Source: a virus
DNA length: 44,224 nt
Direction: 5' to 3' (one strand)
IMG/VR virus record: IMGVR_UViG_3300050015_000082
Coordinates: 1-44,224 of that record
Within the stretch, counting starts at the first letter, position 1. Every line of letters begins with the position of its first letter. Shown here piece after piece: positions 3,291 through 42,312 of the stretch. The notes beneath the pieces were generated by a model that saw nothing but the letters and a program-made list of their open reading frames with translations, did not search any database and was not told the origin of the DNA. The position numbers and the translations under genes were made by a program.

Positions 3291-3322
3291 TGGATTTCCT
3301 TTCTGTAGAGCGTCTTGCGCTC

Positions 3323-3392
3323 CCTTTACGGCTCCAGAAGAATGCTCCGGAACAAGCTCATTGCTGTGGCCATTGGAGCGGAGCCGTAAAGG
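3323..3392. promoter_or_regulatory. 13-bp perfect inverted repeat (CCTTTACGGCTCC / GGAGCCGTAAAGG) separated by 44 nt
   Basis: Arms at 3323..3335 and 3380..3392, in the 124-nt gap between two minus-strand genes. A second hairpin, GGCAGG-n6-CCTGCC, follows at 3391..3408. Confidence 0.5.
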
Positions 3393-5789: not shown

Positions 5790-7505
5790 ATGGCTAGACG
5801 CGATACAAGTCAACCGATCCCCGATTTACTTGAGGGCTACATCCCGGATGACCCGGCAAGTCTTGCGGTAGTCGAGTCGCGCGTCATAGCGCAAACGAAG
5901 CTGGCGTTTCTTGAGACGCCTCCGACTCAGGAATCGTTCATTCGCATCAAGAACAATCGCGGTCGGACTCCGAGGGTTCGGGTTTTCGAGGCTGGAAATC
6001 AATCAGGAAAAACTGTGGGCGGGGTGGCTGAGGACATTGCGCACGCGATGGGGTTTAGACCGTGGCTGTCAAAGAGCGATCCTGATTACCGGATACCAAT
6101 TCGAGTTCCGAATTCAGGGTTTGTTGGCTGCGAGGTAGCGGGACAAAACCTCATCCAAAGGATTGAGCCGCTGTTTATGGAGTTCATTCCAAGGTATTGC
6201 GGCGTGGTCCCTACCCGGTACTCGGATGGAGCAATCAAGAGCCTGACGTTGACGTATGACTTCAACGGAAACTCCTGTGGGAGCGTAATCAACTTCCGAT
6301 CGTACATTCAGCCAGCCGACAGCTATGAGGGCGTGGTGAGCCACTGGGGGCACTTTGACGAGCCGCCCCCTGTCGACATCCTTACCGCCGCAACCCGAGG
6401 CCTGATGTCCACGAATGGCCCTCTATGGCTCACCATGACGCCTTTGAAAGAGCCGTACATCTACGATCTGTTTTCAATTAAGGCATTCAACAATGGGGGT
6501 AGCGATCAGGAAGTAGCTATTTTTCGATGCTCGACATGGGAGAACTGCCAGGACTGGTGCCGGGATTGCAATGTGACGATTATCGAAAACGATCCTGACA
6601 GATTGGAACCTGGGCAGACCAGGCCGGTATCGCATTGCCCATCTTGCGGAAAAGTGATGGGGTTCATGCCCCGCGCCGGAATCGAGAACTACCTCAAGAA
6701 GATTTCCGACCCTGACGAGCGCGAGGCCCGCGAAGAGGGGAAGTGGAAGCACCTATCGGGTCTGGTGTACAAGGAACTTGATAGAGAGGTCCATCTCTAC
6801 GAGGACTTCCAGATTCCCAACAATTGGATGCGGATTGAGGTTCTGGACCCGCACGATGCAAGGCCATGCTGCTGGCTGTTTGGAGCCGTAAGCCCTGAAG
6901 AAATTACTGTAAATGGAACATCCGCAAACAGAATCTATTGGTATTCATATTTGAGGCCCAGCGGAAACATCGAGTCGATTTGCCGACAGGTGAGGGTGAA
7001 GAGGGCGGAACACAACTACAAAGAACCGGCTATGCTCATCATCGACGTAAAGTTTGCGGCGGCGGAAAAGCCTTTGCATGGCGAGGTGTTTCCTTCGTGG
7101 GAGGAAGAGCTTGAAAAAGCAGGCATGAAGCATATCGTCCATTCCTGCTCCGCGCCTGGAGACGTAAACCTGGGACACAAGCGAGTGAAGGAATACATCG
7201 CTCCTCACTACTCATCAGTGCGCGGGAAGAGCTTTCCTGGGATGATGTGGGCAAAGGATGGCTGCAAGGGCGACGGTGGTCCTATTCAGCACATGTGGAA
7301 CTATATGTGGGACGAGAAGAAGGATGAAAAGCCCCAAGAGAAGTACAAGGATTTTTGCGACGCAGTTCGATACGCCGCTTTGGAGCAGCCGACCTACACA
7401 GCTCCGCAACCGGACATCGATCCTGAATTAGCGCGGAGGCTTCTGGCGGCTCAGGACAATCAACCGAACGCAAACCCGCTCTTCTACGGGTTGGGGGTGA
7501 AATGA
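5790..7505 (+). CDS. terL: Terminase large subunit (571 aa)
   Basis: Walker A-like GNQSGKT and Walker B-like WGHFDEPP. Size and position upstream of the portal also fit. Confidence 0.8.
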   Translation: MARRDTSQPIPDLLEGYIPDDPASLAVVESRVIAQTKLAFLETPPTQESFIRIKNNRGRTPRVRVFEAGNQSGKTVGGVAEDIAHAMGFRPWLSKSDPDYRIPIRVPNSGFVGCEVAGQNLIQRIEPLFMEFIPRYCGVVPTRYSDGAIKSLTLTYDFNGNSCGSVINFRSYIQPADSYEGVVSHWGHFDEPPPVDILTAATRGLMSTNGPLWLTMTPLKEPYIYDLFSIKAFNNGGSDQEVAIFRCSTWENCQDWCRDCNVTIIENDPDRLEPGQTRPVSHCPSCGKVMGFMPRAGIENYLKKISDPDEREAREEGKWKHLSGLVYKELDREVHLYEDFQIPNNWMRIEVLDPHDARPCCWLFGAVSPEEITVNGTSANRIYWYSYLRPSGNIESICRQVRVKRAEHNYKEPAMLIIDVKFAAAEKPLHGEVFPSWEEELEKAGMKHIVHSCSAPGDVNLGHKRVKEYIAPHYSSVRGKSFPGMMWAKDGCKGDGGPIQHMWNYMWDEKKDEKPQEKYKDFCDAVRYAALEQPTYTAPQPDIDPELARRLLAAQDNQPNANPLFYGLGVK

Positions 7506-14991: not shown

Positions 14992-17900
14992 GTGCCTAAG
15001 AGTTATCCTGTCCGAAACTCCATGAATGCCGGGGAATTTTCAGAACTTATATCTGGATTCCGAGAAGATATTCAGAAGTTTTCGAGCGGTTGCAAAATCC
15101 TCGAAAACGCAGTCCCGCTAGTCGAGGGCGGCGCAAAGAAGATGCCGGGGACGTACTTCGCGGGATCGACTGCGAACGGCGGTGCAATGTTCACCGCGTC
15201 AATCGCTGGCACTACCATGACTGTCACAGCGGTCAATTATGGCGTCCTACAGGTAGGGCAGACGATTGTGGGGGTTGGGGTAGCCTCTGGTACCACCGTA
15301 AGCGCCTACGGCACAGGGACTGGCGGCACGGGCACTTATACGATCACGCCTACTCAGACGGTAGCCAGTGAGACAATGCAGACGGCCAGCGACGGCAAAA
15401 GCCGATTGGTTCCATTCCAGTTCTCAACTTCCCAAGGAGCGGTTTTAGAACTGTCAGCGGGAATCATTCGGGTATGGGAAGGAGCCACTGAGGGGGATTG
15501 GTTTCTTGGTCTGGTTTCTAATCAGCTTTCGGGAGACTACGACCCGACAGTCTTATATTCCCCTGGCGATAAGGTTTCCGTCGGTCAATCCTGCCCAATT
15601 GGGTTGATCACTAATCCGGGAAGTCCAGTATTCTCTGTATCGCTCCTATCGGGAGGATCGGGATACGGTACACCGGGATCGACCGTGTCTCTTAGTTTTT
15701 TTGGCACTGGGTCTGGAGCGGCTGGATATGCGACTGTTGGCTATAGTTTTGGAAACATCGTTTCAGTCACTTTGACTTCTGGAGGGTCCGGTTATACCTC
15801 TACACCATCCGTGTCTGTCTCCGGTCCAGGCAGCGGCGCATATGTCTCTGCCACAGTGGGAGGCGGATATGCGATCTCAGGTTCCATTGTCTTAACAGCT
15901 CCGTATGGCGAACATATTTCGGGAGTAACAGCCACGGTATCTACGAACACGTCAAATGCCCTCAGCGTGACTATTACCGGAAGTTCTCCGGCGCAGGGGA
16001 TCAATATTGCTCTTGCGAATGCGACTCCCGCCAACAACAGCGCTGTGAATATTCAGGCTGCGATCCGGTCTCTGGTGTCTTTGAATTCAGCATCGAGCAA
16101 CTTCATCGATCTGTCTAAGTGGACTGTGACTCCAGACCCAACGTATTATGCGTCACCGTGGATAACGTTTCCGACCGGGAAAACTTTCTCGTTCATTGGC
16201 CCCGCCGAATACTTCTCGTGTTCCGCTATAAACCAAAACGATCATTTCCCATTTGCTGTTGTAGTTTCGGTTATCGGCGGGATTCCATCAGTGGCAGTGA
16301 TACAAAACTCCTCATATTGGACGATCATCTCCGCTCCGCCCATTCCGCCTATACCGATTGAGTTGACTACTCCATATGCTGAATCTGATTTATTTGCTCT
16401 TGATTGCAGTACGCAGAGTGCTGACGTTCTATGGATTTTTCACTCAAGTTACCCCCCAGCATGTGTAGAACGGTTCGGGCCTAATTTGTGGAAGTACAGT
16501 CTATCGCTTCCCGGCCAGCAACCGGGGGAACCTGCGTATCGAGGAACGCTGGATGTGGTGAAGACCGGGTACAGTGCTCTTGGACAAAATATTAGCCTCA
16601 TCTCGCAAGCAAATCCATGTACTGTAGTTCTGGCAAGTTCAAGTTCGTCTCGGCCATTCCAAGTTGGCGACCGAATCTATATCAATCTTGGTGCTGGACT
16701 TGTCGAACTTAACGAGGGCGAATTCCTTGTACGCTCTATTGCTTATGGGCCTGTTTCAATCCCAGTCGTTGACGCATCGGGAACGGGATCGACCGTTACA
16801 GCGATTGGGTGGTACATGACTCTCACCGATCCTGATTCCGGGACAGCGATTGACTCGACTAGCTATTTGCAATATCAGGGTGGAGGTTTCGCGGTAAAGG
16901 TTGTATCCATGTTTGCGGCGGCGGGAGACTATCCGGCTTGTGGAACTCTCTACCAGGAGAGGCTATGCGTTGGTGGAACAAATAATAATCCAACACAGAT
17001 CAAAGGGTCTGTAGAGGGCGATTACCCGGACTTCATCTGCGACCCAAATGAGGATGACTACGCGATTCAATATACGCTGGTGTCTAATCAGGTCAACCAG
17101 TTGCTCAACATGATCGGAACTCCCAACGCGCTCTTGGCTGGAACGTCTGGAGGGGTATGGGTTATTCAAGGATCGAATGGTTCATCCTCGTCTCTAAGCC
17201 AGACGAATGTGAGCGCGGTTGTCCAGTCAACTCTAGGCATAGCGGCATTGCAGCCTCAACTTGTTAACGGGTCTGCGATCTTTGTTTCTAGGTCAACCAG
17301 GATAGTTACGTTCCTTCTTTACAGTTTCCAGTCGAACACCTGGGAGAACATCGACCTGACCCGACTTAACAGGAGCATCACGATAGGCTCAAGTGAGTCT
17401 ACTTCAGGGATTGCGCAGACGGCATTTCAGATGGAGCCTTATCCAATCTTCTGGGCAGTTCGCAATGATGGGCAGTTGCTCGGGTTGGTGTTCAATACGC
17501 AGGATCAGGTGTTTGGATGGTTCCGAATCAACATGGTTCCCGAAGGCGGATACATCGAGTCCGCAGCGGTCATCACCGGATCTGGCCAAGAGGATCAGCT
17601 TGTCGTGGTTGTCAACCGAACCGTCAATGGAGTAGTTCAAAGGTACGTTGAATACTTCATGCCTCAGGAGATTTTCAGCCAACTACCCAATGCTTTCTTT
17701 GTGCATTCTGGCCAGCAGCTGCAGGGCGTAGGGCCTTTTGAAATCACTGGAATCACGAACACCAATCCTCCAGTGGTCACGGTCCCAGGGCATACATTCA
17801 CAGACGGCATGACGGTTCAAATCACCCAGGTCAACGGAATGGTTAGCCCAACCGGGCAAGCGATCAACCAAGACGCAACGGAAGCGTATACGGTCACTGG

Positions 17901-18456
17901 AGTGTCGGGGAATACGTTTGAGTTGCAGGGAATGGACACATCGACTTGGACTCCGTATGTGAGCGGAGGGTCAGTGTCGCAGGTCTTCAATCAGGTTACC
18001 GGGGTAAGCTACCTTCTTGGGAATACCGTAGTCGCTGTGGGCGATGGGGCGATCATTCTTGATCAGACCGAGGTAACCTCTGACGCGATCACATTCGACT
18101 ACTACGCCAATCTCATCACTATCGGAATACCCTATGACACGACCATCCAGCCGACGAACCCCGTGCTGAGTTCTCAGGGAGCCACCAGTAGAGGGATGCC
18201 GCAGAAGTTGAACAGGGTTACGCTCTCCCTGTATCAGTCGATGGGCGGTCAGTACGGAAACGATCTTGACCACATGTACGACATCACCTATGGGCAAGGA
18301 ACGAAGTTGAAGACCCCACAAATGAGCACAGGTGAATTCACGCGCGATATGGATTGCGACTGGACGGAAGAGAGTACATTCATTGTGAGGCAGAGCGATC
18401 CTCTTCCGTTTTGTTTAAGGGGAATAATTTTCCGTCTGTCAGCCAATCAAGACTAA
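14992..18456 (+). CDS. Nozzle / tail tubular protein B-like (T7 gp12-like) with large insertions, GTG start (1154 aa)
   Basis: Called from position and size. It has inserted Gly/Thr-rich modules, including SGGSGY..P..V...G.GSGA motifs at about 15640..15870. Confidence 0.5.
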   Translation: MPKSYPVRNSMNAGEFSELISGFREDIQKFSSGCKILENAVPLVEGGAKKMPGTYFAGSTANGGAMFTASIAGTTMTVTAVNYGVLQVGQTIVGVGVASGTTVSAYGTGTGGTGTYTITPTQTVASETMQTASDGKSRLVPFQFSTSQGAVLELSAGIIRVWEGATEGDWFLGLVSNQLSGDYDPTVLYSPGDKVSVGQSCPIGLITNPGSPVFSVSLLSGGSGYGTPGSTVSLSFFGTGSGAAGYATVGYSFGNIVSVTLTSGGSGYTSTPSVSVSGPGSGAYVSATVGGGYAISGSIVLTAPYGEHISGVTATVSTNTSNALSVTITGSSPAQGINIALANATPANNSAVNIQAAIRSLVSLNSASSNFIDLSKWTVTPDPTYYASPWITFPTGKTFSFIGPAEYFSCSAINQNDHFPFAVVVSVIGGIPSVAVIQNSSYWTIISAPPIPPIPIELTTPYAESDLFALDCSTQSADVLWIFHSSYPPACVERFGPNLWKYSLSLPGQQPGEPAYRGTLDVVKTGYSALGQNISLISQANPCTVVLASSSSSRPFQVGDRIYINLGAGLVELNEGEFLVRSIAYGPVSIPVVDASGTGSTVTAIGWYMTLTDPDSGTAIDSTSYLQYQGGGFAVKVVSMFAAAGDYPACGTLYQERLCVGGTNNNPTQIKGSVEGDYPDFICDPNEDDYAIQYTLVSNQVNQLLNMIGTPNALLAGTSGGVWVIQGSNGSSSSLSQTNVSAVVQSTLGIAALQPQLVNGSAIFVSRSTRIVTFLLYSFQSNTWENIDLTRLNRSITIGSSESTSGIAQTAFQMEPYPIFWAVRNDGQLLGLVFNTQDQVFGWFRINMVPEGGYIESAAVITGSGQEDQLVVVVNRTVNGVVQRYVEYFMPQEIFSQLPNAFFVHSGQQLQGVGPFEITGITNTNPPVVTVPGHTFTDGMTVQITQVNGMVSPTGQAINQDATEAYTVTGVSGNTFELQGMDTSTWTPYVSGGSVSQVFNQVTGVSYLLGNTVVAVGDGAIILDQTEVTSDAITFDYYANLITIGIPYDTTIQPTNPVLSSQGATSRGMPQKLNRVTLSLYQSMGGQYGNDLDHMYDITYGQGTKLKTPQMSTGEFTRDMDCDWTEESTFIVRQSDPLPFCLRGIIFRLSANQD

Positions 18457-18573
18457 CAGACGGAAGCCTTGCCCAACCTTACCACACACTACCAGACCGG
18501 GCCATGCCGTTCCTTGCCATACCATGCCGCACCACACCTGTCCATTCACTACACAGGCACACATAGCCGTTCC

Positions 18574-19194
18574 TTAGTTCAATTCTACTACGTCGAATCC
18601 TACCACCTGGAATCGACCAAACGATGGTCGAAAGTCGCCCACACCAACAATACGCCCCGCATACTGGAGGGTATCGTTTAGTAAATGAGGAGAGATGTAT
18701 TCCGGCAAGAGAACCTGCAAGGATACGGAGCACTTCCACCCTGAAAGCATTGCGGGGCGAACTCGCGTGATAGCACTCCGCTGAATCACAACGCGGCGTC
18801 GATCAAGATAGTCCGGTTCCTTGACTCCGAGATCGCACATTTCCCATATGGTTGCGATGCCAGCCTTGAATAGGTCCATAGCCGACTTACGGGGAGAGCG
18901 CGGGTCTTGCCGAAACTTGGCCGCGTGAATGATGGTCTGACGGAAATACTCAGAAGGGATGGCGACGTTACCATTCTCGTAGCGGTAGATGTAGCTCTCG
19001 ATGTTGTCCGTCTTCTTCGACTTCGATCCCTTGGCGGCGTTAGCCTTCTCCTCAACAGCCTCGCAACTCCATCGATGAAACAGAATAGCGGCAGTTCCTT
19101 CGATTCTCGCTTCGATCATGTAAGGGACGGAAATCTTGATGTCCGTCTTTGCATCGTTTGTTACGTTGCTCAATGCCGATACCTTGTTTTCCAT
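18574..19194 (-). CDS. Orphan 206-aa protein on the opposite strand to the virion module
   Basis: ORF 18574..19254. The start is set at ATG 19194 (MENKVSAL), 1 nt after the stop of the RHH ORF. I recognise no named motif. Confidence 0.65.
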   Translation of the reverse strand: MENKVSALSNVTNDAKTDIKISVPYMIEARIEGTAAILFHRWSCEAVEEKANAAKGSKSKKTDNIESYIYRYENGNVAIPSEYFRQTIIHAAKFRQDPRSPRKSAMDLFKAGIATIWEMCDLGVKEPDYLDRRRVVIQRSAITRVRPAMLSGWKCSVSLQVLLPEYISPHLLNDTLQYAGRIVGVGDFRPSFGRFQVVGFDVVELN

Positions 19195-19195
19195 T

Positions 19196-19348
19196 TCATA
19201 CCTCGATTTTTGTGATTTTGTGTTTTTCTGCAAGCTCTCTGATCGCCGTTTCAATAACTGCCGAACGATGCAATCCGAGTGTTTTAGAAAGCAAAGAAAT
19301 CAAATTCAAACATGACCCAGTAAGGCGGAAACTTGTTGGAATACTCAT
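19196..19348 (-). CDS. Arc/CopG-like ribbon-helix-helix protein (50 aa)
   Basis: Not in the ORF track. AAGGAG lies 5 nt before ATG 19348. MSIPTSFRLTGSCLNLISLLSKTLGLHRSAVIETAIRELAEKHKITKIEV fits a strand-helix-helix pattern. Confidence 0.55.
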   Translation of the reverse strand: MSIPTSFRLTGSCLNLISLLSKTLGLHRSAVIETAIRELAEKHKITKIEV

Positions 19349-19435
19349 CGATTCTCCTTAAAACTTCCCTTACCATTGCCAACCGGACCTGACCCCGCCT
19401 CACCATTCCCAACCCATCCTTTACAGAATGTTTAA

Positions 19436-19464
19436 ATGGTATCGCAAATGCGCTACGATGTCAA
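19436..19464 (-). promoter_or_regulatory. Candidate sigma70-type promoter of the minus-strand cassette (TTGACA-17-TACCAT)
   Basis: The minus strand reads TTGACA tcgtagcgcatttgcga TACCAT, about 80 nt upstream of ATG 19348. Confidence 0.5.
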
Positions 19465-19529
19465 GGATTATTTTAATACGGTTCTCCGAACGACTACTAG
19501 GTATATCATGTTCAAATAGAGGGCGAAAG

Positions 19530-20024
19530 ATGGCGGGAAGCATCTCGGCAACCACGGCAACTCTGATAGCTGGCGGGGCTTCATCTCTCATGTCCGGCGT
19601 TGGGAAGTACGAGCAGGGACAGCAGCAGCAGAAAGCATACGACTACAACGCCTCAATCACTGAGCAGAACACAGCTAACCAGGTCGTTGCCAATCAGCAG
19701 AAGTTTTCGTCTCTGGTAGGCCGTCAGGCAACCTCTTACGCAGGAGCAGGAGTGGATATTGCTTCCGGCTCCCCGCTCCTCATCATGGCTGCTACTGCCG
19801 CGCGCGGAGCGCAAGAGGGAGAACAGATTGAGCAGTCAGGTACGGAACAGGCGAACCTCCAACGCTACTACGGAAAGATGGCGGCGTTCAGCGGAATTAC
19901 TGGTGGCATAGGATCGTTCCTGAGCGGAATGACCTCCGACCTGTCTTCCTACGAAAAACTGACAAGCAATCCTAAACCAACGTCTTCAGCGTTTCCGGGC
20001 TTAGGAGAGGGGATTGAAGGCTGA
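19530..20024 (+). CDS. Internal virion/ejection protein candidate (164 aa)
   Basis: The start is set at ATG 19530 (GAGGGCGAAAG before it). The N-terminus is paralogous to 8389..8664. It occupies the position of T7 gp13/14. Confidence 0.55.
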   Translation: MAGSISATTATLIAGGASSLMSGVGKYEQGQQQQKAYDYNASITEQNTANQVVANQQKFSSLVGRQATSYAGAGVDIASGSPLLIMAATAARGAQEGEQIEQSGTEQANLQRYYGKMAAFSGITGGIGSFLSGMTSDLSSYEKLTSNPKPTSSAFPGLGEGIEG

Positions 20025-40901: not shown

Positions 40902-41555
40902 TTATACGTTAAGCTCTTCGATCATCTGCTCGACTTCGGCGTTTATCTTGCATACTTCCGCTTCCAGTTCGGCCACGCGCTTTTCATCGTAGGCAACCGG
41001 AATCACGAGCAACTGAAGGTGTGCAGGGAGACGCGAATCGAAGCAAACAAAATCCCACTTTTCGCGCTCACAGCACACCATATTCCATTGAATCTGGTCG
41101 GCGTACTCTTGCGGAACTTCACGCGACTTCCAGATTCCCAGATGCCGCCCTGTGGTAAGGCATTTGATCTCAATCCCCGAATCGTCGCCAACAAGTCCAT
41201 CGGGCGATCCTCCGGTAAAGTCCAGCGCCGGGTGAACCGCGAAGCATACAGGCTCCACCATCAGGCTGCACCGCTGCTCGTATGCGGACCGGGCATATTC
41301 CTCCTGCTCTGCTCCCCACTTCATTTCGTTCGTGACGAAGTGGTTTGAGGAAAGGCCGGTCAGCCGTTCGGAAAGCAACTCTATCGCGTAGTCAGAACGG
41401 GCTTTTAGCGGGATACCTTCTTTGCTCTTCTGCTTGCTGTAGGCCATCACGTCGCCAAGGCGAGACGCCGTTATGCGGCCACACCGTAGCTTCATCCACT
41501 CCATTGTCGGCTGTCCATCGGGGCCGTGCTGTTCTCCAAAGACGATTCTAGGCAT
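40902..41555 (-). CDS. YqaJ-type (lambda Exo-like) recombination exonuclease (217 aa)
   Basis: Has WMKLRCGRITASRLGDVM, GGSPDGLV and IEIKC motifs, and lies adjacent to an annealase. Confidence 0.7.
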   Translation of the reverse strand: MPRIVFGEQHGPDGQPTMEWMKLRCGRITASRLGDVMAYSKQKSKEGIPLKARSDYAIELLSERLTGLSSNHFVTNEMKWGAEQEEYARSAYEQRCSLMVEPVCFAVHPALDFTGGSPDGLVGDDSGIEIKCLTTGRHLGIWKSREVPQEYADQIQWNMVCCEREKWDFVCFDSRLPAHLQLLVIPVAYDEKRVAELEAEVCKINAEVEQMIEELNV

Positions 41556-42312
41556 GGGGAGCCGCCTTCGCCAGTTGCTTGAACCGCTCGTTCTTGGCTT
41601 CCCCGAACACCCGCAGAGCTTCCGTATCTTTTGCGTCGGTTGCGGCCTTGGATGCGGCCAGATATACCCGCTTGAGCGACTCTACATCTGGCGCGGTTGC
41701 GATGGCGTCCAAGTAGGGCTTGACTGCGTCTTCCGGTATGCCCTCCTTCTCCAGCGCGTCAATGCCCACCGCGATGTTGAAGATCGCTAACAACAAATAC
41801 CGCTTCGAGCGCGAAGAAGCGATAGCATCGGCATCCGTTGCGGTTGCCATTGCTCCACCTTTCGGGCCGGTTGTGCTTGGCGTGATCTCGCTGTAGTAGG
41901 GACGTGATACTCCGCACCGCGACAACATGGCCTCAATCCGCACCTTGCCTGGAGCTATCGGGGAAACCTCTGAGAATGTGATGTTGAACCGCGCTGCTGT
42001 GTAGATGGGACGGATAGCCCTGTCAAGCTGCGCATAATCTGCCCAATTGGAGTTTGTATCGTTCCGGTGGACATTCGGAGCGATGCGTCCGATCTTCTGC
42101 TGGCAATCGTTTAGCGCATCGTCAAAGTCAATCTTTGCCTGCCGCTCCTGCGCCTCCCAATCGAACCGGACCATTGACTGCTGAAGCGCCACCAGTTCTT
42201 TCAGGACTTCTGGAGCTACATTCTTAGTAAGCGCCTCCTGAATCAGTGAAAGCGGAGTGATCTCCCTCTTTTGAATTGCGGTCGGCTCCTGAATTGCGAT
42301 CTCGTTGCTCAT
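41548..42312 (-). CDS. ERF-family single-strand annealing protein (254 aa)
   Basis: NWADYAQLDRAIRPIYTAARF and AIASSRSKRYLLLAIFNIAVG resemble ERF signature segments. It is paired with the YqaJ exonuclease. Confidence 0.55.
   Translation of the reverse strand: MSNEIAIQEPTAIQKREITPLSLIQEALTKNVAPEVLKELVALQQSMVRFDWEAQERQAKIDFDDALNDCQQKIGRIAPNVHRNDTNSNWADYAQLDRAIRPIYTAARFNITFSEVSPIAPGKVRIEAMLSRCGVSRPYYSEITPSTTGPKGGAMATATDADAIASSRSKRYLLLAIFNIAVGIDALEKEGIPEDAVKPYLDAIATAPDVESLKRVYLAASKAATDAKDTEALRVFGEAKNERFKQLAKAAPHA

What the first reader, a model, noticed from the sequence alone, without database searches (positions are those of the whole stretch)
18457..19529. Opposite-strand Arc-like RHH + 206-aa orphan cassette with its own promoter, embedded between the nozzle and ejection-protein genes
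Seen: within the 29-kb plus-strand late block (4286-33519), this 1.07-kb segment is the only part coded on the minus strand. It has TTGACA-17-TACCAT (19464..19436), a G-rich leader of about 80 nt, and AAGGAG 5 nt before an ATG. That ATG opens a 50-aa ORF missed by the ORF track, with a strand-helix-helix pattern typical of ribbon-helix-helix repressors and antitoxins. A 206-aa ORF starts 1 nt after its stop. Both flanks (18466..18573 and 19355..19428) are C-rich and G-poor on the plus strand and share words (CCTTACCA, CCAACC, ACCGGACC / ACCAGACCGGG). A hairpin, CCGTCTGT-n15-ACAGACGG (18432..18462), spans the nozzle stop codon. Established: phage P22 keeps its immI module (Arc and Mnt RHH repressors plus the Ant antirepressor) inside the late region between the ejection and tailspike genes. 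RHH-plus-effector pairs are also typical of toxin-antitoxin and abortive-infection modules. Inference: this is a self-regulated accessory module, possibly an antirepressor, a TA/exclusion system or an anti-defence gene. I cannot place the 206-aa protein in any family. Its C-terminal GVG-x5-FG-x-F loop and the segment IPSEYFRQTIIHAAK are only faintly reminiscent of RAMP (Cas5/6/7) proteins, so that comparison is speculation.
Basis: partly seen in the sequence, partly recalled or inferred. Interest (0 to 1): 0.78.

Follow-up and report, generated by a model that had tools for sequence, protein, structure and literature searches.

The report
Phage VIPR RNA-guided silencing cassette
The opposite-strand cassette is a phage VIPR system, a small Cas7-like protein with its pentanucleotide-repeat guide RNA genes and a ribbon-helix-helix regulator; this kind of RNA-guided DNA silencer used in phage-versus-phage conflict was first described in 2026 preprints, so it is a new example of a known kind.

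Summary
The 206-aa "orphan" is a Vipr protein. A family profile matches the solved SUSP1 Vipr (PDB 36pp, E 5.6e-10) and hhalign to the wV8 ortholog gives 98% probability. Its AlphaFold model matches Cas7/Csm3, and the seven SUSP1 residues named in the structure paper for contacting the guide's GGY bases or the target backbone align to columns that are invariant in the 31 relatives aligned.

The two "C-rich flanks" are, on the minus strand, the only GG-period-5 tracts in the 44-kb window. They have 11 and 16 GGYNN units, which is the signature of VIPR guide RNAs (vrRNAs). The same tracts flank vipr in 77 of 80 related viral loci: 3476 units on the vipr strand against 59 opposite, position 3 a pyrimidine in 87%, NN positions unbiased.

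The 50-aa ORF is a ribbon-helix-helix protein. It is probably an autorepressor acting on an inverted repeat inside the TTGACA-17-TACCAT promoter, and it occurs only in the closest relatives.

The 1.06-kb cassette is an insertion. The nearest phage relative joins the nozzle stop codon directly to the internal-virion-protein start.

No target of either guide was found, and there is no self-target. TA, antirepressor and anti-defence readings are not supported.

The parts
18457..19520 (-). Whole VIPR cassette, a 1.06-kb insertion between the stop codon of the tail tubular B/nozzle gene and the Shine-Dalgarno sequence of the internal-virion-protein gene.
   Evidence: The closest phage relative L089 (88% aa identity over the C-terminal 299 aa of the nozzle protein) reads stop-GGGTAAAG-ATG with nothing in between. 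L091 and L104 are the same.
19436..19464 (-). Sigma-70-type promoter TTGACA-17-TACCAT. Its spacer holds an imperfect inverted repeat, GTAGCGCA-tt-TGCGATAC (19456..19439, 7 of 8 pairs), which is the putative RHH operator.
   Evidence: Promoter scan. A homologous promoter with an inverted repeat is present in L003, L085 (perfect 9-bp arms), L002 and L006, and the half-site changes together with the RHH N-terminal strand. The operator role is an inference.
19365..19419 (-). Upstream vrRNA repeat tract in the 5' leader, 11 pentamers: GGATG GGTTG GGAAT GGTGA GGCGG GGTCA GGTCC GGTTG GCAAT GGTAA GGGAA. No structured 3' tail was detected.
   Evidence: for the tract. The fold of the leader is not significant (z = -0.4).
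19196..19348 (-). 50-aa ribbon-helix-helix protein, a candidate operon autorepressor or accessory (vap-like) gene.
   Evidence: Pfam RHH_3 E 3.2e-4, 21.0 bits against a cut-off of 21.6. phrog_3887 transcriptional regulator. A profile of 5 orthologs matches CopG at E 0.0095. AF2 gives strand 6-8, helix 11-24, helix 28-43 at pLDDT 83. RHH proteins (TacA, CopG, Arc, VapB) are prominent among the Foldseek hits, but no hit reaches E <= 0.001.
18574..19194 (-). vipr gene, encoding a 206-aa single-RRM RAMP (Cas7-like) protein with the G-loop GVGDFRPSFGRF.
   Evidence: Profile against PDB 36pp 'SUSP1 Vipr protein', E 5.6e-10. hhalign to wV8 gp096 gives 98% probability, E 1.3e-13. AF2 pLDDT is 80, and Foldseek top hits come from type VII CRISPR-Cas and type III Csm complexes (several entries named Csm3) at E about 1e-6. 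phrog_4652.
18464..18573 (-). Downstream vrRNA repeat tract of 22 in-register pentamers. Six are degenerate (18573..18544). Then come 16 units (18543..18464): GGACA GGTGT GGTGC GGCAT GGTAT GGCAA GGAAC GGCAT GGCCC GGTCT GGTAG TGTGT GGTAA GGTTG GGCAA GGCTT.
   Evidence: Position 3 is a pyrimidine in 13 of 15 GG units.
18430..18465 (-). Terminal hairpin that caps the downstream vrRNA (candidate 3' tail or transcript end). It overlaps the last codons and the stop codon of the convergent nozzle gene.
   Evidence: In L083, the same phage lineage, both arms have changed in a compensatory way (CCGTCTGT/ACAGACGG to CGGCTCTC/GAGAGCCG) while the nozzle peptide RLSANQD is kept.

Best explanation
The cassette is a VIPR (Viral Interference Programmable Repeat) system carried as a moron by a podophage that has a T7-like virion module.

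Proposed mechanism:
1. A host-RNAP promoter drives one minus-strand transcript that holds, in order, a leader-embedded vrRNA tract, the RHH gene, vipr, and a second vrRNA tract closed by a hairpin.
2. Vipr protomers bind one GGY each and polymerise along the GGYNN repeats.
3. The exposed NN dinucleotides read double-stranded DNA with a one-nucleotide skip (target xNNxNN...).
4. The bound filament blocks transcription of a competing phage, prophage or satellite.
5. The RHH dimer most likely binds the inverted repeat inside the promoter and autoregulates the operon.

Shown here: homology of the protein to a solved Vipr; the RAMP fold; conservation of the residues the structure paper names for contacting GGY or the target backbone; the repeat tracts and their family-wide association with vipr; the insertion.

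Inferred from the published SUSP1 and P. fulva work: RNP formation, the 1-nt-skip reading and transcriptional silencing. Inferred from comparative sequence only: RHH autoregulation. The target is unknown.
For: **Protein**
- A profile of 31 relatives matches PDB 36pp 'SUSP1 Vipr protein' at E 5.6e-10 over residues 28-200.
- hhalign to the Felixounavirus wV8 ortholog gives 98% probability.
- SUSP1 residues H17, K33, E71, R138, D177, W178 and R179 contact GGY or the target backbone (bioRxiv 10.64898/2026.04.26.720927). They align to H40, K55, E82, R146, D187, F188 and R189, all invariant in the 31-sequence alignment A1.
- The AF2 model matches subunits of type VII and type III (Csm3) CRISPR complexes, E about 1e-6, TM about 0.5. 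BFVD hits include a phage protein named 'Cas system-associated RAMP superfamily protein'.

**Guides**
- The only two GG-period-5 tracts in the window flank vipr on its own strand.
- In 77 of 80 IMG/VR loci that encode relatives, such tracts occur on the vipr strand; most lie directly next to vipr. There are 3476 GG units on that strand against 59 on the other. Position 3 is C 43% and T 44%, and positions 4 and 5 are unbiased. This is the GGY/NN code of bioRxiv 10.64898/2026.04.26.720920.
- There is no self-target, as the paper also reports.

**Locus**
- It is minimal and phage-borne, with a small DNA-binding accessory gene.
- It is an insertion relative to the nearest phage relatives.
- The same genotype is present in two further sequencing runs.
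Against: - No target was found with the 1-nt-skip rule. Exact scans gave nothing in IMG/VR, JGI metagenomes or GTDB genomes. Hits to 9-unit seeds extend at chance level. Mismatched targets could not be searched in the collections.
- The upstream tract has a pyrimidine at position 3 in only 7 of 10 units and no recognisable 3' tail. It might be a leader rather than a guide.
- The downstream tract has degenerate units.
- There are no expression, RNP or binding data for this clade. It is only distantly related to the two systems tested experimentally: a single-sequence tblastn reaches the SUSP1 clade only at E 2e-3.
- The RHH is absent from most relatives, so it is not a core component.
Confidence: 0.87

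Rival explanations
1. It is a decayed or repurposed VIPR locus. The Vipr protein is intact, but the guides no longer direct inter-phage targeting. For example, the leader tract could serve as a Vipr-binding site that autoregulates translation or stability of the operon mRNA, or the system could tune the phage's own or the host's genes through imperfect matches.
For: Both tracts have degenerate units, and the upstream tract has a pyrimidine at position 3 in only 7 of 10 units. It sits between the promoter and the RHH ribosome-binding site without a tail. No external target was found.
Against: The protein is under strong constraint, with 54 invariant columns in 31 relatives. The downstream tract has 15 good GG units of 16 and a hairpin maintained by compensatory changes. 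There is no self-match of 80% or more. Exact-match scans are a weak test for targets.
Confidence: 0.08
2. It is an RHH antitoxin plus toxin (TA or abortive-infection) pair.
For: The gene order, a small RHH followed by a larger ORF 1 nt after its stop, is typical of TA operons. Foldseek lists RHH antitoxins (TacA, VapB, AtaR) among the hits for the small protein.
Against: The large protein is a Vipr/RAMP homolog and has no PADLOC hit. Most of its relatives lack any RHH partner, whereas nearly all carry GGYNN arrays.
Confidence: 0.02
3. It is a P22 immI-like antirepressor module (an Arc/Mnt-type RHH controlling an Ant-like effector) or an anti-defence gene.
For: It lies inside the late region, and it has an Arc-like RHH with an operator-like inverted repeat in its promoter.
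Against: The Pfam, PHROG and NCBIfam scans returned no antirepressor family for the 206-aa protein. Its family assignment and the flanking guide arrays explain the whole cassette.
Confidence: 0.02
4. It is a fragment of a CRISPR-Cas system (a solo Cas7 with a mini-array).
For: The best PDB fold matches are chains of type VII CRISPR-Cas and type III Csm complexes.
Against: Sequence identity to those chains is about 10%. There are no CRISPR repeats or spacers, only 5-nt period tracts, and no other ORF lies within the 1.06-kb insert. At sequence level the protein matches Vipr, not Cas7.
Confidence: 0.01

Closest known systems
Type II VIPR of Escherichia phage SUSP1 and other Felixounavirus phages (e.g. 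wV8 gp096/gp095), and the P. fulva prophage VIPR (bioRxiv 10.64898/2026.04.26.720920 and .720927; PDB 36pp)
   Same: Homologous Vipr protein of about 200 aa in which the residues named for GGY and target-backbone contacts are conserved. GGYNN repeat tracts lie on the same strand both upstream and downstream of the coding genes. The locus is a minimal two-gene locus, it is phage-borne, and it has no self-target.
   Different: The relationship is distant: the profile E-value is 5.6e-10, and single-sequence tblastn gives only E 2e-3 over 73 aa. The accessory gene is a 50-aa RHH placed upstream of vipr, rather than the 146-aa gp095 placed downstream. The upstream tract sits inside the mRNA leader without a tail. 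The downstream guide ends in a simple hairpin, not the ~40-nt conserved 3' tail, predicted to include a pseudoknot, that the paper describes for the SUSP1 clade. There is one downstream guide instead of an array of three. The VIPR type (I-VII) could not be assigned here.
Class 1 CRISPR backbone subunits (Cas7: Csm3 of type III-A; Cas7 of type VII)
   Same: Foldseek places the model among subunits of type VII and type III complexes (E about 1e-6). Per the VIPR papers, RAMPs share an RRM core, a glycine-rich loop and a thumb, and one protomer binds per guide repeat unit.
   Different: Sequence identity is about 10%. There is no CRISPR array, no other cas genes and no adaptation module. The guide is a 5-nt tandem repeat that carries 2 specificity bases per unit, not a contiguous spacer.
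CopG / Arc / Mnt ribbon-helix-helix repressors (P22 immI; plasmid pMV158 CopG)
   Same: The 50-aa protein has the strand-helix-helix topology. A profile of it and its orthologs matches CopG (E 0.0095). Its own promoter carries an inverted repeat in the spacer, the classic autorepressor layout.
   Different: The Pfam RHH_3 score is 21.0, just under the cut-off of 21.6. The gene it controls is a Vipr, not an antirepressor or replication gene. DNA binding has not been tested.

Membership tests
VIPR system | Encodes a Vipr protein homologous to characterised Viprs | tested here: met
   Profile against PDB 36pp SUSP1 Vipr, E 5.6e-10, covering residues 28-200. hhalign against wV8 gp096, probability 98%, E 1.3e-13.
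VIPR system | Single-RRM RAMP fold with a glycine-rich loop and a thumb | tested here: met
   AF2 pLDDT 80. Foldseek top hits are chains of type VII CRISPR-Cas and type III Csm complexes, probability 1.00. The G-loop GVGDFRPSFGRF is invariant or nearly so. The thumb was assigned by alignment of R146 to SUSP1 R138, not by inspection of the structure.
VIPR system | Residues that bind the GGY bases and the target backbone are conserved (SUSP1 H17, K33, E71, R138, D177, W178, R179) | tested here: met
   They align to H40, K55, E82, R146, D187, F188 (aromatic for W) and R189, all invariant in A1.
VIPR system | Intergenic regions flanking vipr on its strand hold tandem YNNGG (GGY/NN) repeats, at least 4 units | tested here: met
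   11 units at 19419..19365 and 16 units at 18543..18464. These are the only such tracts in the window, and shuffles never reach them. Family-wide, 77 of 80 loci have them and position 3 is Y in 87%.
VIPR system | GGY conserved while NN varies between related loci | tested here: met
   Across 3476 units, positions 4 and 5 are near-uniform while position 3 is C or T. Between the window and L083 the flanks are 84-85% identical, but the arrays are 108 and 199 nt long and share only a core of about 55 nt. Within that shared core, substitutions are not confined to NN.
VIPR system | Conserved structured 3' tail after the repeat tract | tested here: inconclusive
   The downstream tract ends in a 13-14-bp hairpin with compensatory changes in L083. 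The upstream tract has no significant structure. Across the clade, sequences after arrays fold only slightly better than controls.
VIPR system | Accessory vap gene next to vipr | tested here: inconclusive
   An RHH gene is present and translationally adjacent. It occurs only in the closest relatives found: 4 further loci with a complete gene, plus the two truncated contigs L083 and L084. A Zn-ribbon ORF replaces it in 3 others. The words 'ribbon' and 'RHH' do not occur in the text of the classification paper. I could not check whether it equals one of vap1-6.
VIPR system | Guides have DNA targets that follow the 1-nt-skip rule, at least 80% NN match, in competing mobile elements | tested here: inconclusive
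   Full-length and 9-unit patterns gave no exact hits beyond chance in viral, metagenome and genome collections. Searches that tolerate mismatches were possible only on about 0.6 Mb of held sequence.
VIPR system | No self-targeting | tested here: met
   No match with 3 or fewer mismatches in the window. With a 1-nt skip, no site in the window reaches 17 of 22 (upstream guide) or 22 of 32 (downstream guide).
VIPR system | vrRNAs are expressed, co-purify with Vipr and silence transcription | not testable with these tools
   Needs sRNA-seq, pull-down and reporter assays.
Ribbon-helix-helix repressors (CopG/Arc/MetJ superfamily) | N-terminal strand followed by two helices, with sequence match to RHH profiles | tested here: met
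   AF2 gives strand 6-8, helix 11-24, helix 28-43. RHH_3 E 3.2e-4, just under the gathering score. The ortholog profile matches CopG at E 0.0095.
Toxin-antitoxin / abortive infection pair | The partner protein belongs to a toxin or defence-effector family | tested here: not met
   No PADLOC, Pfam or NCBIfam hit. The partner is a Vipr.

The most novel reading that the evidence does not exclude
This lineage could be a VIPR variant that the seven published types do not cover. It would be a self-contained 1.06-kb mobile cassette in which a small nucleic-acid-binding protein gates the operon from an operator inside the promoter. That protein is an RHH here and is swapped for a 4-Cys zinc ribbon in sister loci. 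One guide would be embedded in the mRNA leader, so that guide production, Vipr synthesis and repression are coupled in a single transcript. The cassette would hop into a moron hot spot between the nozzle and internal-virion-protein genes of T7-like virion modules.
Probability: 0.3. Interest if true: 0.45.

Novelty: new member of a known kind. Interest (0 to 1): 0.42.

Why it matters
VIPR is a newly reported way of reading DNA with RNA: gapped NN reading by a Cas7-like filament, proposed to be older than CRISPR. This locus shows a compact, autonomously promoted version riding as a moron inside the virion-gene block of an environmental podophage.

The clade is very large and entirely unannotated in the databases searched. 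There are 6740 relatives at E <= 0.001 among 90%-identity clusters and 2658 among the 50%-identity representatives. None has a Pfam domain on record, and the one GenBank phage copy is labelled an HTH regulator.

The locus also adds candidate regulatory and accessory partners (an RHH, or alternatively a zinc ribbon) and a clean insertion-versus-empty-site comparison. It is useful for annotation and for choosing further VIPR systems to test, but it does not change the published picture.

Tried and rejected
**Family libraries for the 206-aa protein.** Pfam, NCBIfam and PADLOC gave nothing. Only phrog_4652 ('unknown function') matched.

**Target search with the published 1-nt-skip rule.**
- Full 11-unit patterns for both guides gave 0 hits in viral contigs, metagenome contigs and genome contigs.
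- Four 9-unit seeds were scanned in viral contigs.
  - Two gave nothing.
  - One gave 2 hits that extend at chance level.
  - One gave 3 hits.
    - All 3 lie in one family of homologous contigs, L105-L107.
    - They match 20 of 22 NN over the 11 clean units, but the skip base falls on codon position 2, the flanks match at chance, and the contigs are unrelated to this phage.
    - I rejected this as indistinguishable from chance.

**Self-target and all-held-loci search with skips of 0-3 nt.** Only the guide genes themselves matched, at skip 3.

**Rfam on the cassette.** Nothing meaningful and no hammerhead ribozyme.

**Homolog search for the RHH.** Only the protein itself was found. Its orthologs had to be found by tblastn in fetched loci.

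**A general hairpin tail after arrays in this clade.** Not supported.

**A conserved accessory gene across the clade.** None was found beyond the RHH (5 loci) and the Zn-ribbon (3 loci). The largest 'cluster' was made of spurious ORFs that translate the arrays.

**VIPR type assignment.** Not possible, because no supplementary data of the paper are held.
Full report
**1.

The minus strand of 18457..19529 carries a 50-aa ORF (19196..19348) and a 206-aa ORF (18574..19194) whose ATG lies one base after the first ORF's stop. TTGACA-17-TACCAT at 19464..19436 is the only sigma-70-like site in 18300..19650. AAGGAG lies 5 nt before the 50-aa ORF's ATG. An inverted repeat spans the stop codon of the upstream + strand gene.

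The neighbours are a T7 gp12-like tail protein (14992..18456, phrog_376, E 1e-121) and an internal virion protein (19530..20024, phrog_418). Portal, major head and gp11-like tail genes lie upstream. So "between the nozzle and ejection-protein genes" is right. No other minus-strand ORF that I tested in the late block has a family hit.

**2. The 206-aa protein is a Vipr**

It has no Pfam, NCBIfam or PADLOC hit, only phrog_4652 of unknown function. It is not an orphan: 6740 relatives at E <= 0.001 were found among 90%-identity clusters, none with a Pfam domain on record and none with an informative name. A profile search found 2658 relatives among representatives of 50%-identity clusters.

An alignment of 31 relatives (A1) has 54 invariant columns, including QDPRSPRKSA and GDFRP..GR. 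A profile of A1 matches one solved structure, PDB 36pp chain D, 'SUSP1 Vipr protein', at E 5.6e-10 over residues 28-200. hhalign of A1 against the ortholog in Felixounavirus wV8 (gp096) gives 98% probability and E 1.3e-13.

The AlphaFold2 model has pLDDT 80. Its best PDB matches are chains of type VII CRISPR-Cas and type III Csm complexes, several of them entries named Csm3, at E about 1e-6 and TM about 0.5. In BFVD it matches uncharacterised viral proteins and a phage protein named as a RAMP superfamily protein.

Two 2026 preprints describe this family (bioRxiv 10.64898/2026.04.26.720920 and .720927):
- VIPR systems consist of a Vipr protein, a minimal RAMP, plus vrRNAs made of 9-16 YNNGG (GGY/NN) repeats followed by a 3' tail.
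- One Vipr protomer binds each repeat.
- The NN bases read double-stranded DNA, skipping every third target base.
- Binding silences transcription of rival phages, prophages or satellites.

The structure paper names seven SUSP1 residues that hold the GGY bases or the target backbone: H17, K33, E71, R138, D177, W178 and R179. These align to H40, K55, E82, R146, D187, F188 and R189 of the window protein. All seven are invariant in A1.

**3. The "C-rich flanks" are the guide genes**

Read on the minus strand, the two flanks are the only places in the 44-kb window where GG recurs every 5 nt in at least 7 of 10 consecutive units. The observed maximum is 10 of 10. In 200 shuffles the maximum is 7, and the plus strand of the real sequence never exceeds 6.

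- **Upstream tract (19419..19365).** It has 11 units and lies between the promoter and the RHH ribosome-binding site. Position 3 is a pyrimidine in 7 of 10 GG units.
- **Downstream tract.** It starts right after the vipr stop codon. Six degenerate in-register units (18573..18544) are followed by 16 units (18543..18464) with a pyrimidine at position 3 in 13 of 15. It runs into the hairpin.

The association holds across the family. Of 80 IMG/VR loci encoding relatives, 77 have such runs on the vipr strand, and most lie directly next to vipr. There are 3476 GG units on that strand against 59 on the opposite strand. Position 3 is C 43%, T 44%, A 9%, G 4%, and positions 4 and 5 are unbiased. The wV8 locus and the only GenBank phage with a close relative, DSL-LC04, show the same tracts.

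The hairpin is functional rather than accidental. L083 is a contig of the same phage lineage, with a Vipr 92% identical in protein, and there both arms differ in a compensatory way. The changes on the coding arm are synonymous for the nozzle C-terminus RLSANQD. It is not a canonical intrinsic terminator in either direction.

**4. The 50-aa protein is an RHH, probably the operon's autorepressor**

- Pfam RHH_3 gives E 3.2e-4, scoring 21.0 bits against a cut-off of 21.6.
- A profile of five orthologs matches CopG at E 0.0095.
- A single-sequence AF2 model gives strand-helix-helix at pLDDT 83.
- Foldseek returns no hit at E <= 0.001, as expected for so small a domain, but RHH proteins (TacA, CopG, Arc, VapB) are prominent among its hits.

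Complete orthologs occur only next to the closest Viprs: L002, L003, L006 and L085. The truncated contigs L083 and L084 carry its 3' end. Sister loci L004, L005 and L086 have a 47-aa four-cysteine zinc-ribbon ORF instead, and most of the clade has no conserved partner.

All five RHH promoters carry an inverted repeat in the -35/-10 spacer. The half-site changes together with the N-terminal strand of the protein: PTSFRL or PTSIRL goes with GTAGCGCA, and SVGYRL or SVAYRM goes with TATAC or GTATAG. That supports an operator, but it remains an inference.

In the relatives the RHH gene is leaderless and the repeat tract lies between the RHH gene and vipr. In the window the tract has moved into the leader.

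**5. The cassette is an insertion**

Sixteen IMG/VR loci encode relatives of the nozzle C-terminus, and none has the cassette. In the closest, L089 (88% aa identity), the nozzle stop is followed by GGGTAAAG and the ATG of the internal virion protein. L091 and L104 are alike. L090 and L092-L094 hold a different ORF of about 140 aa at the same junction. The insert is window ~18457..19520. The identical sequence occurs in two further public runs.

**6. Targets**

I used the published query rule: replace each GGY by one wildcard and search both strands.
- There is no self-target.
- 11-unit patterns give no exact match in the viral, metagenome or genome collections.
- 9-unit seeds gave only hits that extend at chance level.
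- One seed hit three homologous contigs, matching 20 of 22 NN over the clean units. The skip base falls on codon position 2, and the contigs are unrelated to this phage, so I treat the hit as chance.

The collections could be scanned only for exact matches, so the target remains unknown.

**7. Verdict**

The cassette is a VIPR system, and all sequence-level membership criteria are met. The expression, RNP and silencing steps are inferred from the SUSP1 and P. fulva experiments, which concern a distant clade.

The TA, antirepressor and anti-defence readings are not supported.

Because VIPR was described in 2026, this is a new member of a known kind. Three features are specific to this lineage: RHH gating, a guide embedded in the leader, and insertion into a moron hot spot of a T7-like virion module. 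Whether these match one of the seven published types could not be checked, because no supplementary data of the paper are held.

Noticed in passing
L090 4400-4860; L092-L094 equivalent; compare window 18457..19520: The junction between the nozzle and internal-virion-protein genes is a moron hot spot. Four relatives carry a different + strand ORF of about 140 aa (no Pfam hit) where the window carries the VIPR cassette. Three relatives have an empty site.
   Followed up: partly
L004 2834-2977, L005, L086 (about 5834-5980): In close Vipr relatives (75-82% identity) the RHH is replaced by a 47-aa four-cysteine zinc-ribbon ORF behind a consensus promoter (weak PF08274 hit, E 5e-4). This suggests interchangeable small accessory or regulator genes.
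   Followed up: partly
L001 (GenBank OR003939, phage DSL-LC04) 11706-12612: This is the only close homolog in the GenBank phage (INPHARED) collection searched (WJZ48083.1, 55% identity). It is annotated 'helix-turn-helix transcriptional regulator', yet three GGYNN arrays lie directly upstream. The annotation is probably wrong.
   Followed up: partly
L082 (phage wV8, NC_012749) 1911-1968 and 3304-3361: The 'DR_4' direct-repeat features annotated in the wV8 record lie at the 3' ends of the GGYNN tracts that flank gp096 (Vipr) and gp095.
   Followed up: no
window 18439..18564(-), 18479..18739(-); L108 1652-1777: Translating vrRNA arrays yields spurious W/G/R-rich ORFs. A 41-aa gene was called on one of them in a public assembly, and such ORFs cluster across 29 loci. 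This is an annotation artefact to watch for.
   Followed up: yes
L105 1717-1742, L106 1923-1948, L107 3524-3549: A 9-unit seed from the downstream guide matches a 99-aa ORF in three homologous IMG/VR contigs, with 20 of 22 NN over the 11 clean units. The skip base falls on codon position 2 and the flanks match at chance, so it cannot be told from a chance hit.
   Followed up: yes
window 18300..19650, + strand: Plus-strand late transcripts would have to cross the cassette antisense to reach the genes from 19530 onward. No + strand promoter or terminator was detected there. The antisense RNA could in principle interfere with the guides late in infection.
   Followed up: no
L002, L003, L006, L085 promoters: In the relatives the RHH genes are leaderless (ATG 6-7 nt after the -10 hexamer) and the repeat tract lies between the RHH gene and vipr. 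In the window the tract and a Shine-Dalgarno sequence sit between the promoter and the RHH gene, which is a local rearrangement.
   Followed up: partly
L002, L003, L006, L083, L085 downstream arrays: Small GC hairpins such as GGAACGGGCC-nnnn-GGCCGG punctuate the long arrays. They may mark boundaries between individual vrRNAs. The window has GGAACGGCATGGCCCGG at the corresponding place, which looks like a decayed copy.
   Followed up: partly
window 40902..42312(-): The minus-strand early region encodes a RecE-like exonuclease (phrog_149/434) and an Erf-like annealing protein (phrog_155). The PHROG scans of the 28 window ORFs tested returned no RNA polymerase family. The phage therefore seems to combine a T7-like virion module with a lambdoid-type recombination module.
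   Followed up: no
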